From the NCBI RefSeq assembly GCF_056746865.1, contig NZ_CM163382.1: a stretch of 64,000 nucleotides of DNA; one strand, 5' to 3'. Below are positions 33,001 through 36,000 of the stretch, one piece after another (within the stretch, counting starts at the first letter, position 1; every line of letters starts with the position of its first letter). Made by a program: the position numbers.

Positions 33001-36000
33001 CGCCTGAATTTCTCAGTGAAGCCCTGAAACTTGCTGAACGCATCGGTGTTGCTGCCGCAGCCCGTGAACTCAGCCTGTATGAATCACAGCTCTATGCGTG
33101 GCGCAGCAAACTGCAGCAACAAATGAGTTCGTCAGAGCGTGAAAGTGAACTGGCCGCTGAAAATGCCTGCCTGAAGCGGCAACTGGCGGAGCAGGCAGAG
33201 GAACTGGCTATCCTCCAAAAGGCCGCGACATACTTTGCGAATCGTCTGAAATGAAGTATGTCTTTATTGAAAAACATCAGGCTGAGTTCAGCATCAAAGC
33301 AATGTGCCGCGTGCTCCGGGTGGCCCGCAGCGGCTGGTATACGTGGTGTCAGCGGCGGACAAGGATAAGCACGCGTCAGCAGTTCCGCCAACACTGCGAC
33401 AGCGTTGTCCTCGCGGCTTTTACCCGGTCAAAACAGCGTTACGGTGCCCCACGCCTGACGGATGAACTGCGTGCTCAGGGTTACCCCTTTAACGTAAAAA
33501 CCGTGGCGGCAAGCCTGCGCCGTCAGGGACTGAGGGCAAAGGCCTCCCGGAAGTTCAGCCCGGTCAGCTACCGCGCACACGGCCTGCCTGTGTCAGAAAA
33601 TCTGTTGGAGCAGGATTTTTACGCCAGTGGCCCGAACCAGAAGTGGGCAGGAGACATCACGTACTTACGTACAGATGAAGGCTGGCTGTATCTGGCAGTG
33701 GTCATTGACCTGTGGTCACGTGCCGTTATTGGCTGGTCAATGTCGCCACGCATGACGGCGCAACTGGCCTGCGATGCCCTGCAGATGGCGCTGTGGCGGC
33801 GTAAGAGGCCCCGGAACGTTATCGTTCACACGGACCGTGGAGGCCAGTACTGTTCAGCAGATTATCAGGCGCAACTGAAGCGGCATAATCTGCGTGGAAG
33901 TATGAGCGCAAAAGGTTGCTGCTACGATAATGCCTGCGTGGAAAGCTTCTTTCATTCGCTGAAAGTGGAATGTATCCATGGAGAACACTTTATCAGCCGG
34001 GAAATAATGCGGGCAACGGTGTTTAATTATATCGAATGTGATTACAATCGGTGGCGGCGGCACAGTTGGTGTGGCGGCCTCAGTCCGGAACAATTTGAAA
34101 ACAAGAACCTCGCTTAGGCCTGTGTCCATATTACGTGGGTAGGATCACATAACCTGAAATGGCACTAATGGCCAGAGCTTACTAATACATAATCCCTACA
34201 GGATGTAGCCACCAGTTTTGTTCATCCGGTATTCTGATTTGGTAACATGCTCCAGAAAGGAAGAAATATGTACTGCAATGAATTAAAAGAATTTGCGCAA
34301 GAGCAGGAACAAAAACTTATCAGTGCGCTTGCTGATACCAGAGAGCACCCGTCCCCCGATGGTGAAACAAGAAGCCGGGATAATTATCAACGGGATTACG
34401 CGCGTATTCTGTATTCATCATCATTTCGCAGGCTGCAGGGAAAGATGCAACTTTTTGAAATTGATCCTGAAAAATTCAACAGAAACAGATTAACGCACAG
34501 TCTTGAGGTTGCTCAGATCGCCCGAAGTATCGCGTCAGACCTCAAACTGATTAACCCGGTGGTGGTTGAACTGGCAGCGCTGGCGCATGACATCGGAAAT
34601 CCTCCTTTCGGTCATTCCGGTGAAAAACTGCTTAATGAACTGTCTGAAGAAATCGGCGGCTATGAAGGTAATGCACAGGCGCTACGTATCCTGAGAAAAC
34701 TGGAGAAGAAATTTTCATACTGCAACGGATTAAATCTGACTCACCGTAGTTTACTTTCGGTTGTTAAGTATCCCATCCCCCGCGCTGCAGCTACTGCCGG
34801 CAAGTTCATTTATGATGATGATTACTATTTTTACATTAACCTGCTTGCTGAAAATCAGCTCGATCTGAATCCCGGAGAGAAAACGATTGATGCGCAGATA
34901 ATGGATCTCGCGGATGAGATTGCCTACGCCGCGCATGACCTGGAAGATGCCCTTAGCAGGAACATGGTCACGATTGAAGATATTGAATATGAGTTTCAGA
35001 TTTCTGACGAATTCCGGGGAGCGAGGGAACAGTTCAGGGAAATCGTTACTCAGTCGAGAAACACCGCTTTTCAGGCTAACTTACTGAAAACCTCAGAAGA
35101 ATTTGCCATCATATTCCGCAAGGAGTTAACTTCAAATATTGTCAATCGCCTCGTTGCAGATATTTCTGTAGTAACGAACCTGAATGGTTTTCAGGAACTG
35201 GGGTTCGGGAAACTGAATGCGTTATCCGAAGGACTCAAAAAACTTCTCTTTAAAGTCATCATGCGAAAACGTAATATCCTCACCTATGAGTTCAGGGGAA
35301 ATAAAATAATCAGGGATTTATATGACTTTTACAATGAAGGAGAGAATTATAAATTTCTGCCTCCTGAACTTAAATTCACCTTACCCCAACCAGATTCCTG
35401 TATATTTGAAATCAGCAAAAAACGAGCAGTGGTTGACTATATTTCAGGTATGATGGATACATTTGCAGTCAAGGAATGGGAAACTCACTGTCTGAAGTAA
35501 CACTGCCGATTACCAGAGGCGCATATTTTCCCGTTATGGTTATTGCGCCTTTATTCCGTTTCGGTGACAGGTTATTTTAAATATTCTGGAAATGCGTTGA
35601 TGGGCAAGAACAATTACCCTGAAAATAAATACAGGAAATGGTTTTCCACAGCAATAACATATCTTATTACAGGTGGTTTGTGCTGGTATATGTTGTGGGC
35701 ATCCGCTATATCTCATTATACTGTTTTACAAAATACGGTACCTGAATGGACAACATATTTTTGCACCGGTATAATCACCGGATCTCTTTCTTTTATTTAT
35801 GCATTTTATATCCGCACCTTTAACAGAACATTAAAGTCTTTATTAAATGCATTCACGGGGGGATTTTGTCTTGGATTTATACTGAGTCCTGATGAATCCC
35901 CTAATGATTTTGATAAAAATCATTAGGGGATTCATCAGTGCTTGACCTTGTTTAAAAGCTGTAATATCGCAATTTACTAACTCAATATCTAAATCCATTG

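What the first reader, a model, noticed from the sequence alone, without database searches (positions are those of the whole stretch)
34268..35500. Short Dgt-family dGTPase in defence context (candidate dNTP-depletion defence)
A 410-aa HD-domain Dgt homologue (…HDIGNPPFGH…) sits in an island beside R-M, toxin-antitoxin and ThyA-like genes, not in the housekeeping dgt context. Dgt homologues are known to act as anti-phage dGTP-depleting enzymes. A MazG-like gene lies about 5 kb to the left and the ThyA-like operon 1.5 kb to the left, giving several nucleotide-metabolism enzymes in a small neighbourhood. A small membrane ORF (35600..35926) follows.
Basis: partly seen in the sequence, partly recalled or inferred. 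Interest (0 to 1): 0.5.

Follow-up and report, generated by a model that had tools for sequence, protein, structure and literature searches.

The report
Island-borne short anti-phage-type dGTPase gene
This is an intact extra copy of a dGTP-destroying enzyme carried on a mobile island of E. coli; it belongs to a short-form branch whose Vibrio cholerae relative appears to be a tested phage-defence gene, so it is a probable but ordinary, untested member of a known kind of defence.

Summary
The gene is real: 34268..35500 (+) encodes a 410-aa HD/HD_assoc dNTP triphosphohydrolase with every catalytic residue kept. It is an accessory gene, present in about 318 of 5426 complete E. coli genomes. The housekeeping dgt (24% identical) is in 5424 of them.

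In a bootstrap tree it does not group with housekeeping Dgt. It also does not group with the first validated defence clade (Sp-dGTPase / E. coli G177, 32-34% identical; NCBIfam anti-phage model 284 bits against a 400 cutoff). It sits in a 100%-supported short-form clade (about 400-410 aa). That clade includes a V. cholerae superintegron cassette dGTPase (53% identical; PDB 9vwa), which matches the published anti-phage cassette "Ogmios".

Relatives at 54-82% identity lie in prophages, integrase-adjacent islands, or beside SIR2, Old-like, KAP NTPase, NACHT and DUF2971 genes. No partner gene is conserved across genera.

The ThyA-like/MazG block is an independent module, separated by an IS3 and absent from other strains carrying the same gene. 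The "small membrane ORF" is the first 96 codons of a 189-aa gene, cut at an IS-end-like palindrome.

Verdict: a probable single-gene dGTP-depletion defence, a new member of a known kind, of modest interest and untested.

The parts
34268..35500 (+). CDS of a 410-aa short-form dGTPase-family dNTP triphosphohydrolase (RefSeq WP_000271619.1). It is intact and is the whole predicted system.
   Evidence: ORF. Pfam HD + HD_assoc. TIGR01353 at 316 bits, above its cutoff. PADLOC dGTPase at 365 bits. RefSeq CDS. AF2 model with pLDDT 89.9 whose best Foldseek PDB matches are VC1979, Sp-dGTPase, CloA, TT1383 and Dgt.
34586..34615 (+). Codons for H107-D108 (the HD metal ligands) through H116. E119, the other half of the His/Glu catalytic dyad, lies 3 codons further on. 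The other metal ligands are H77 and D216, and the catalytic Tyr is Y220.
   Evidence: The pairwise alignment to E. coli Dgt maps H77/H107/D108/H116/E119/D216/Y220 onto Dgt H69/H117/D118/H126/E129/D268/Y272. All seven are invariant in 57 homologues. The roles of these Dgt/CloA residues are as stated in PMC12265719.
34148..34267 (+). Native 5' region (probable promoter and leader, including the AAGGAAG Shine-Dalgarno). It is retained in full downstream of the IS3 end.
   Evidence: It is identical to an IS3-free E. coli copy (strain FEX669) from 34148 onward. It is conserved in blocks with the Proteus and Edwardsiella prophage copies. There is no Rfam match and no covarying structure. No strong sigma-70 consensus was found by the scan.
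32891..34147 (+). IS3 pseudo-element forming the left boundary of the dGTPase module. It is not part of the system.
   Evidence: Terminal repeats TGATCTTACCC... and ...GGGTAGGATCA were read directly. RefSeq annotates 'IS3 family transposase, frameshifted'. The flanking triplets are ACT and CAT, so there is no target-site duplication.
35600..35892 (+). 5' remnant (96 codons) of a 189-aa hypothetical membrane-protein gene that follows the dGTPase in other E. coli islands. Here it is truncated, so it is not a functional partner.
   Evidence: 95/96 residues are identical to WP_000517678.1 of strain 97-3250, after which the sequences diverge. The gene is absent downstream of the Proteus, Edwardsiella, Klebsiella and metagenomic homologues. 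A Pantoea homologue is not next to a dGTPase.
35889..35938 (.). Perfect 23-bp inverted repeat (CTGATGAATCCCCTAATGATTTT / AAAATCATTAGGGGATTCATCAG) at the breakpoint. It forms the right boundary of the module, and the papA remnant follows.
   Evidence: DNA fold of -26.1 kcal/mol, z = -10.3. Homology to the intact downstream gene ends at 35892, and 35902..35948 recurs up to 42 times per E. coli genome. Its resemblance to an IS10-type terminal repeat is from memory and was not tested.

Best explanation
The gene encodes a stand-alone, homo-oligomeric HD-domain deoxynucleoside-triphosphate triphosphohydrolase. It belongs to the short-form ('Ogmios-like') branch of the dGTPase family and is carried as cargo of a tRNA-Phe (pheV) integrative island. 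Its most likely role is single-gene anti-phage defence: it hydrolyses dGTP (possibly other dNTPs as well) to deoxynucleoside plus triphosphate, so an infecting phage runs out of a DNA building block and its replication stalls, at the cost of growth arrest of the infected cell.

Shown here:
- The enzyme family, the intact active site and the fold.
- The accessory distribution alongside a retained housekeeping dgt.
- Placement in the clade that holds the V. cholerae integron-cassette dGTPase.
- Mobile-element and defence-gene neighbourhoods in relatives, with no partner gene conserved across genera.

Inferred:
- dGTP as the substrate.
- The oligomeric state.
- Phage protection.
- The trigger, which could be constitutive pool lowering or activation by phage shut-off of host transcription, as suggested for Sp-dGTPase by T7 gp5.7 escape mutants.
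For: Enzyme family. Pfam HD + HD_assoc, TIGR01353 above its cutoff. The metal ligands H77/H107/D108/D216, the dyad H116/E119 and Y220 are invariant in 57 homologues and align to the Dgt catalytic residues. The AF2 model has pLDDT 89.9 and matches solved dGTPase/dNTPase structures.

Accessory status. The gene is in 318-343 of 5426 complete E. coli genomes, against 5424 for dgt.

Phylogeny. The short-form clade has 100% bootstrap support and contains both the window protein and the V. cholerae protein P0121. It is separate from Sp/Ec-G177 and from Dgt.

Link to a tested relative. The transcribed 9vwa chain (390 of its 402 residues) matches P0121 at about 100% identity. P0121 is a single-gene cassette flanked by VCR repeats in a superintegron array. 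Its 90%-identity cluster includes V. cholerae O1 and HC-50A2 isolates. It is 53% identical to the window protein over the full length. The preprint 10.1101/2024.07.02.601686 reports a dGTPase cassette, 'Ogmios', of the N16961 superintegron as anti-phage. A second Ogmios homologue protects against ICP1-3.

Contexts of relatives.
- Prophages: Proteus next to int, Edwardsiella, Morganella, and a Providencia P2-like end.
- Islands: K. variicola beside a NACHT gene, Dickeya next to an integrase.
- Neighbours that hit PADLOC defence or candidate-defence models: SIR2/ThsA-like, Old-like, PDC-S31, PDC-S20/KAP NTPase, QueC.

Precedent. Single-gene dGTPases deplete dGTP and protect against phages (Tal et al.).
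Against: - This protein, and the Enterobacterales subclade it belongs to, have never been tested.
- It scores below the curated NCBIfam anti-phage dGTPase cutoff (284 against 400). It is only 32-34% identical to the dGTPases validated by Tal et al., who found that homologues below 45% identity were rarely next to defence genes.
- The PADLOC model that hits it also hits housekeeping Dgt at 237 bits, so that hit does not discriminate.
- The equation P0121 = Ogmios is inferred from context, not read from a published sequence.
- Substrate specificity cannot be read from sequence: by PDB phmmer score the protein is about as close to the broad-specificity Thermus dNTPase as to Sp-dGTPase.
- An IS3 sits 120 nt upstream and the island is heavily decayed, so expression is unproven.
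Confidence: 0.7

Rival explanations
1. An accessory dNTP-pool enzyme with no role in phage defence. For example, it could be a second dGTPase that tunes dNTP levels or mutation rate for the host, or for the replication of the island or prophage, and is simply hitch-hiking on mobile elements.
For: Tal et al. note that homologues below 45% identity to Sp-dGTPase may be housekeeping. More distant relatives at 30-37% identity are widespread in species-representative genomes. The nearest relatives among species representatives (Paenibacillus, Herbinix, Flavobacterium; 41-50% identical) have neighbourhoods that show no obvious defence genes by inspection of raw ORFs, which were not scanned against any family library.
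Against: Only about 6% of E. coli genomes carry the gene, and they keep dgt. Every Enterobacterales context examined is a prophage, an island, or a site next to a defence-type gene. The clade includes a V. cholerae cassette that matches a validated anti-phage gene.
Confidence: 0.13
2. A two-gene system: the dGTPase works with, or is regulated by, the 189-aa membrane protein encoded just downstream in E. coli islands. In this window the partner is truncated, so the system is broken or deregulated.
For: In three other E. coli strains the dGTPase is followed within 100 nt, on the same strand, by the intact 189-aa gene. The downstream region is present in 334 genomes.
Against: The 189-aa gene is absent next to the 75-82%-identical homologues in Proteus, Edwardsiella and Klebsiella. 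Its Pantoea homologue is not beside a dGTPase. About 274 genomes keep an intact, 100%-identical dGTPase beside the truncated copy. The V. cholerae relative is a single-gene cassette. The 189-aa protein has no PADLOC hit.
Confidence: 0.08
3. Part of a joint nucleotide-metabolism or DNA-modification pathway with the neighbouring ThyA-like, aGPT-Pplase3/ADDT and MazG-like genes. The dGTPase would remove a canonical nucleotide while the others build a modified base.
For: The genes lie within 5 kb of each other. In one relative (Cronobacter) the dGTPase is next to QueC-like and deoxyribosyltransferase-like genes.
Against: An IS3 without a target duplication separates the two segments. Strain 97-3250 has the same dGTPase directly after the ISL3 fragment and IS3, with no ThyA/MazG block. 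FEX669 and MRE162 have cdiBA or fec genes to its left instead. The block is in 231 genomes against 318 for the dGTPase. None of the homologue contexts has ThyA-like or ADDT genes. A thymine-modifying pathway also gives no reason to deplete dGTP (inference).
Confidence: 0.03

Closest known systems
Ogmios-type dGTPase: the V. cholerae superintegron cassette dGTPase (PDB 9vwa/9vwc/9vwg sequence; preprint 10.1101/2024.07.02.601686)
   Same: Short form (402 against 410 aa), 53% identical over the full length (381 bits), and in the same 100%-supported clade. Both have the N-terminal helix, identical catalytic residues, and a single-gene unit carried on a mobile element.
   Different: Identity is only 53%, and the window protein is in a separate Enterobacterales subclade (100% bootstrap). 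It is carried by a pheV island or prophages rather than an integron cassette. It is untested. The identity of the PDB/V. cholerae protein with 'Ogmios' is inferred from context, not read from a published sequence.
Sp-dGTPase / E. coli G177 anti-phage dGTPase (Tal et al.; NCBIfam NF041026; PDB 9p8w)
   Same: Same HD/HD_assoc fold and the same metal-binding and His/Glu catalytic residues. Both are single-gene systems, often near type I R-M. The expected chemistry is dGTP to dG plus PPPi.
   Different: Identity is 32-34% and the clades are separate. The NF041026 score of 284 is below the 400 cutoff. The window protein is about 45-50 aa shorter: it lacks the insertion between the KYP segment and the IMDLADE helix, and it has about 25 extra N-terminal residues. 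PGAP names the G177 type 'anti-phage deoxyguanosine triphosphatase' but gives this gene only a family name.
E. coli housekeeping Dgt (b0160; PDB 4X9E/6OIY)
   Same: Same superfamily, and the catalytic residues align one to one.
   Different: Identity is 24%, and Dgt is 505 aa against 410. Dgt is a core gene at the mtn-dgt-degP locus in 5424/5426 genomes. The NF003429 score of 156 is below the 405 cutoff.
Clover CloA (a dGTPase controlled by the CloB nucleotidyltransferase; PDB 9p8s-v)
   Same: HD dNTPase fold, with TM-score about 0.75-0.77 to the model. It is an anti-phage dGTP-depletion system.
   Different: Identity is 22-24%. Clover needs an adjacent CloB NTase that makes activating and inhibiting signals. 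No NTase gene is next to this gene or next to any homologue examined.
Thermus thermophilus TT1383 dNTP triphosphohydrolase (PDB 2DQB) and human SAMHD1
   Same: HD-domain dNTP triphosphohydrolases. TT1383 scores 157 bits, close to the 167 bits for Sp-dGTPase. SAMHD1 is the eukaryotic antiviral analogue.
   Different: About 29% identical to TT1383. TT1383 has broad dNTP specificity and no known defence role (from memory). SAMHD1 was not aligned here.

Membership tests
dGTPase / dNTP triphosphohydrolase superfamily (TIGR01353; Pfam HD + HD_assoc) | HD domain plus the C-terminal HD_assoc domain, scoring above the curated family cutoffs | tested here: met
   HD 54.5 bits (cutoff 22) and HD_assoc 55.9 bits (cutoff 22.2). 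TIGR01353 316.4 bits (cutoff 152.35).
dGTPase / dNTP triphosphohydrolase superfamily (TIGR01353; Pfam HD + HD_assoc) | H...HD...D metal ligands, the His/Glu catalytic dyad and the catalytic Tyr | tested here: met
   H77, H107, D108, D216, H116, E119 and Y220 align to Dgt H69, H117, D118, D268, H126, E129 and Y272. All are invariant in 57 homologues.
dGTPase / dNTP triphosphohydrolase superfamily (TIGR01353; Pfam HD + HD_assoc) | Hydrolysis of dGTP/dNTP to deoxynucleoside plus triphosphate | not testable with these tools
   This needs a purified-enzyme assay. The substrate is inferred only from family membership.
Housekeeping E. coli-type Dgt (NCBIfam NF003429) | Equivalog-level similarity to Dgt and the core-genome mtn-dgt-degP locus | tested here: not met
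   156 bits against a 405 cutoff. 24% identical. It lies in a pheV island rather than at mtn-degP. Dgt is the outgroup to its clade.
Sp-dGTPase-type anti-phage dGTPase (Tal et al.; NCBIfam NF041026) | At least 45% identity to Sp-dGTPase (the criterion of Tal et al.) and a score above the NF041026 cutoff | tested here: not met
   33.8% identical to Sp-dGTPase over aligned columns. 32% identical to the Ec-G177 type. 284 bits against a 400 cutoff. Separate clade.
Ogmios-type short dGTPase (V. cholerae superintegron cassette) | Full-length similarity to the cassette protein. The preprint's criterion is blastp E < 1e-73 with at least 70% coverage. | tested here: met
   Against V. cholerae P0121: 381 bits, pairwise E = 3e-135, 99% coverage. 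The criterion is quoted. Caveat: P0121 = Ogmios is inferred from the superintegron context.
Ogmios-type short dGTPase (V. cholerae superintegron cassette) | Monophyly with the cassette protein, apart from other dGTPase clades | tested here: met
   The short-form clade of 29 sequences has bootstrap support of 1.0. The Enterobacterales subclade has 1.0 and the Vibrio-type subclade 1.0 (NJ, 200 replicates).
Ogmios-type short dGTPase (V. cholerae superintegron cassette) | Single-gene system with no conserved partner | tested here: met
   The neighbours differ in every one of 10 contexts outside E. coli. The only recurrent E. coli neighbour is truncated here.
Ogmios-type short dGTPase (V. cholerae superintegron cassette) | A hit to the DefenseFinder Ogmios model, and protection against phages | not testable with these tools
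   DefenseFinder models are not available here, and plaque assays are needed.
PADLOC 'dGTPase' system | A hit to HMM PDLC02374 | tested here: inconclusive
   365 bits. The same model gives 487 bits for the validated Ec-G177 type, 357 for the V. cholerae cassette protein, and still 237 for housekeeping Dgt. PADLOC's own thresholds are not known here.
Clover (CloA dGTPase + CloB nucleotidyltransferase) | An adjacent CloB Pol-beta-type nucleotidyltransferase gene | tested here: not met
   The flanks are an IS3 and a truncated membrane-protein gene. No NTase lies beside any homologue. 22-24% identical to CloA.

The most novel reading that the evidence does not exclude
The Enterobacterales short-form subclade is not simply 'another dGTPase'. 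It may be a differently controlled or differently specific nucleotide-depletion enzyme. Three features could mark this: the clade-specific N-terminal helix (residues 4-21); the roughly 115-nt 5' region conserved between E. coli island copies and Proteus/Edwardsiella prophage copies; and, in E. coli, the co-oriented 189-aa membrane protein. Together these could form an infection-responsive switch, or the enzyme could deplete dNTPs other than dGTP. Its carriage on prophages next to int, and on an NDM-5 plasmid, could make it mainly a weapon of mobile elements against competing phages.
Probability: 0.15. Interest if true: 0.5.

Novelty: new member of a known kind. Interest (0 to 1): 0.27.

Why it matters
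If confirmed, about 6% of sequenced E. coli would carry a second, Ogmios-like nucleotide-depletion defence that NCBI annotation currently labels only as a generic dGTPase family protein. These strains include many multidrug-resistant animal and clinical isolates. The gene is physically joined to a floR-tet(A)-strAB-sul2 resistance region, and the same segment has moved onto a conjugative NDM-5 plasmid. Antibiotic selection could therefore spread a phage-resistance gene, which matters for phage therapy. It also shows that the dGTPase defence family has at least two well-separated branches in E. coli. This would extend a known mechanism rather than reveal a new one.

Tried and rejected
- Housekeeping Dgt: rejected. 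24% identical, a core gene elsewhere in the genome, and the outgroup in the tree.
- Membership of the Sp-dGTPase clade: rejected.
- The PADLOC hit as proof of defence: rejected as non-discriminating, because housekeeping Dgt also scores 237 bits.
- Functional link to the ThyA-like/ADDT/MazG block: rejected on comparative grounds.
- The small membrane ORF as a partner: rejected, because it is truncated and not conserved outside E. coli.
- A regulatory RNA in the 5' region: no Rfam hit and no covariation.
- The promoter/terminator scan gave nothing above the shuffled expectation and no consensus promoter in 34148..34267.
- The Foldseek PDB search did not return 9vwa, so that entry's title, organism and date could not be read. 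The organism was recovered by sequence instead.
- Literature searches found no paper describing the 9vwa structure. The Ogmios preprint and its held supplement give no locus tag or sequence.
- The 5' region alignment with the K. variicola and metagenomic copies showed little conservation.
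Full report
**Observation**

The ORF is real. The ORF listing reports 34247..35500 (+), 417 aa.
- It has an AAGGAAG Shine-Dalgarno sequence 6 nt upstream.
- All homologues begin at the equivalent MY(D/C).
- RefSeq annotates exactly this CDS as WP_000271619.1, [quoted passage not shown].

Family assignment is secure:
- Pfam finds HD (E = 1.8e-14) and HD_assoc (E = 6.3e-15).
- NCBIfam TIGR01353 dGTP_triPase scores 316 bits against a cutoff of 152.
- An AlphaFold2 model built on 57 homologues has mean pLDDT 89.9. Its best Foldseek PDB matches are V. 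cholerae VC1979, Sp-dGTPase, CloA, Thermus TT1383 and E. coli Dgt.
- The metal ligands H77/H107/D108/D216, the His/Glu dyad H116/E119 and Y220 align to Dgt H69/H117/D118/D268/H126/E129/Y272. All are invariant in the 57-sequence alignment.

The gene is therefore intact and looks catalytically competent.

**Where the window comes from**

The window is an E. coli chromosomal island.
- Window 1..47815 is 99.9% identical to strain W2-5.
- The island starts with a tyrosine integrase beside tRNA-Phe and yqgA, the position of pheV; the integrase occupies window 1..910.
- It then carries sugar-utilisation genes and a type I R-M operon with an AriA/NsnB-like AAA ATPase.
- Next come an ISL3 fragment, a MazG-like gene, and a small ORF with an XRE/M78 peptidase (PADLOC PD-Lambda-2_B, E = 8.7e-30).
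- These are followed by an aGPT-Pplase3/ADDT plus ThyA-like pair, an IS3 pseudo-element, the dGTPase, and pap fimbrial remnants.
- An ISCR2-floR-tet(A)-strAB-sul2 resistance region follows, and then the AlpA/YfjJ/YfjI backbone of a CP4-57-like element.

**Accessory, not housekeeping**

- The housekeeping dgt of K-12 is found in 5424 of 5426 complete E. coli genomes.
- The window gene with its 5' region is found in 343 genomes, 318 at 80% coverage or more. All copies are chromosomal and 98.5-100% identical.
- The two proteins are 24% identical.
- The exact protein also occurs on the conjugative IncI plasmid pNDM5_LS003, inside a resistance region that shares window 34103..40697 at 99.6% identity.

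**Which branch of the family**

Tal et al. validated dGTPases of 455-463 aa (Shewanella CN-32, E. coli G177 and others). They defined the defensive group as proteins at least 45% identical to Sp-dGTPase. I recovered the G177-type gene from E. coli genomes, where PGAP names it "anti-phage deoxyguanosine triphosphatase".

The window protein does not belong to that group:
- It is 32% identical to the G177 type and 33.8% identical to Sp-dGTPase.
- NCBIfam NF041026 (anti-phage dGTPase) gives 284 bits against a cutoff of 400.
- The strong PADLOC hit (365 bits) does not discriminate. The same model gives 487 bits for the G177 type and still 237 bits for housekeeping Dgt.

The best solved-structure sequence is instead PDB 9vwa/9vwc/9vwg: 402 aa, 387 bits, against 167 for Sp-dGTPase and 81 for Dgt. 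That entry was not returned by the Foldseek PDB search, so its title could not be read. By sequence, the transcribed 9vwa chain (390 of its 402 residues) matches a V. cholerae protein, P0121, at about 100% identity.
- P0121 lies in an array of co-oriented small ORFs (DUF645, ParE/Phd, HigBA) separated by 13 copies of a 123-nt repeat. One repeat sits on each side of the gene, which is the structure of a superintegron cassette.
- Its 90%-identity cluster includes V. cholerae O1 and HC-50A2 isolates.

This fits "Ogmios", the dGTPase cassette of the N16961 superintegron reported as an anti-phage system. That cassette was not matched by the then-current DefenseFinder dGTPase model. A second Ogmios homologue protects against ICP1-3, and a defence-system profiling study now lists Ogmios among systems detected in Salmonella isolates.

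The window protein is 53% identical to P0121 over its full length (381 bits). I built an NJ tree of 45 sequences with 200 bootstrap replicates:
- The short-form proteins (about 400-434 aa) form a clade with support 1.0. This clade contains both the window protein and P0121.
- Inside it, an Enterobacterales subclade (E. coli, Proteus, Edwardsiella, Klebsiella, Pantoea, Morganella, Xenorhabdus, Providencia, Cronobacter) has support 1.0.
- The Sp-dGTPase/G177 pair is a separate clade, and Dgt is the outgroup.

Relative to the Sp type, the short form lacks a 45-50 aa insertion and has an extra, confidently modelled N-terminal helix.

**Genomic context of relatives**

Homologues at 54-82% identity lie in these settings:
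- Proteus mirabilis: at the end of a lambdoid prophage, next to int.
- Edwardsiella tarda: between the recombination and immunity modules of a prophage.
- Morganella: in the replication-to-Q region of a prophage, beside an Old-like ATPase.
- Providencia: at the end of a P2-like prophage, beside a DUF2971/PDC-S31 gene.
- K. variicola: in a CP4-57-like island beside a 2092-aa NACHT protein.
- Dickeya: directly after an island integrase, followed by DUF6119 and a TacAT pair.
- Pantoea: beside a SIR2/ThsA-like gene.
- A metagenomic contig: beside a KAP NTPase (PDC-S20, E = 2.8e-166).
- Cronobacter: beside QueC-like and deoxyribosyltransferase-like genes.

No neighbour recurs across genera, so the unit is a single gene. 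Within E. coli, the right-hand neighbours form a conserved island backbone (189-aa hypothetical, H-NS paralogue, ProQ/FinO, AlpA, YfjJ). The left-hand neighbours vary: hsdR plus IS elements, cdiBA, or the fec operon.

**The side observations**

*The ThyA-like/ADDT/MazG block is an independent module.*
- It is separated from the dGTPase by an IS3 (32891..34147) whose flanks, ACT and CAT, show no target duplication.
- Strain 97-3250 has the same dGTPase directly after the ISL3 fragment and IS3, without the block.
- The block is in 231 genomes, against 318 for the dGTPase.
- No homologue context contains these genes.

*The "small membrane ORF" is a remnant.* ORF 35600..35926 is 95/96 identical to the N-terminal half of a 189-aa protein (WP_000517678.1) that is intact in other strains. 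Homology stops at 35892, at a perfect 23-bp palindrome (35889..35938; -26.1 kcal/mol, z = -10.3). Part of that palindrome recurs up to 42 times per genome. A papA fragment follows.

*The 5' region is intact.* The 120 nt upstream of the gene (34148..34267) is identical to an IS3-free E. coli copy. It shares conserved blocks with the Proteus and Edwardsiella copies, so the native 5' region survived the IS3 junction. It has no Rfam match and no covarying structure.

**Mechanism**

The best-supported reading is a stand-alone HD-domain triphosphohydrolase that lowers the dGTP pool, and possibly other dNTP pools, so that phage DNA replication stalls.
- Sp-dGTPase was shown to deplete dGTP with a matching rise in dG, to depend on its HD motif, and to be escaped by T7 gp5.7/0.7 mutants.
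- The V. cholerae cassettes that confer phage resistance were reported to give growth arrest or lysis without phage amplification.

What I showed here is the enzyme family, the intact active site, the clade, the accessory distribution and the mobile-element and defence context. Substrate, oligomeric state, trigger and actual protection are inferred.

**Verdict**

The hints that neighbouring nucleotide enzymes or the downstream ORF belong to it are not supported. The gene is a new, untested member of a known kind: the Ogmios-like branch of anti-phage dGTPases. Interest is modest.

Noticed in passing
window 28850-32890: A self-contained block lies between an ISL3 fragment and the IS3. It holds a MazG-like gene (29049-29315, -), a 108-aa ORF (29459-29785) overlapping an XRE-HTH/M78 peptidase (29782-30864; PADLOC PD-Lambda-2_B, E = 8.7e-30), and an aGPT-Pplase3/ADDT gene (30867-31811, -; Pfam E = 4.8e-90) overlapping a ThyA-like gene (31808-32788, -). 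A thymidine-hypermodification-type enzyme pair is unusual in a bacterial island. The block is in 231/5426 E. coli genomes, and the ADDT protein has no tblastn match in 50,697 phage records.
   Followed up: partly
window 18850-27630: The type I R-M operon (hsdR 24214-27630, hsdM 22516-24150, hsdS 21377-22519) continues into a low-GC (0.33) pair. This is a 540-aa AAA ATPase (19746-21368, -) that hits PADLOC PDC-M55A/NsnB/AriA, and a 298-aa ORF (18850-19746, -) with no hit. It is possibly an embedded second defence system.
   Followed up: partly
window 34103-40697; L016 (pNDM5_LS003) 9001-15568: The dGTPase, pap remnants, ISCR2 and floR form one segment that is 99.6% identical on a conjugative IncI-gamma/K1 NDM-5 plasmid, next to aac(3)-IIe and blaNDM-5. 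A probable phage-defence gene is therefore co-travelling with antibiotic-resistance genes.
   Followed up: partly
window 35889-35938: A perfect 23-bp inverted repeat (CTGATGAATCCCCTAATGATTTT ... AAAATCATTAGGGGATTCATCAG) marks the breakpoint that truncates the 189-aa gene. Part of it (35902-35948) occurs up to 42 times per E. coli genome. From memory it looks like a back-to-back pair of IS10-type ends or a MITE.
   Followed up: partly
window 34148-34267; L006 9882-10003; L009 9882-10003: The roughly 115-nt region upstream of the dGTPase start is conserved in blocks (for example TTGTTCATCCnGTATTCT) between E. coli island copies and Proteus/Edwardsiella prophage copies. This is more conservation than expected for a mere promoter. 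There is no Rfam family and no covariation.
   Followed up: partly
window 35945-37436: Remnants of a pap (P fimbria) operon lie between the dGTPase module and ISCR2: a 5' fragment of papA, intact papB (36421-36735, -) and papI (37158-37436, +). papI overlaps the truncated ISCR2 transposase.
   Followed up: no
L101 5718-7540 (Cronobacter): A dGTPase homologue (66% identical) sits beside a PfkB/nucleoside-deoxyribosyltransferase fusion and a QueC-like gene (PADLOC QueC, E = 9.5e-20). This may be another nucleotide-targeting defence pairing.
   Followed up: no
window 1-910 and 47816-64000: The window begins inside the island integrase next to tRNA-Phe (pheV/yqgA side). After 47815 it stops matching strain W2-5, so the right third of the window has a different arrangement from the reference strain used for annotation.
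   Followed up: no
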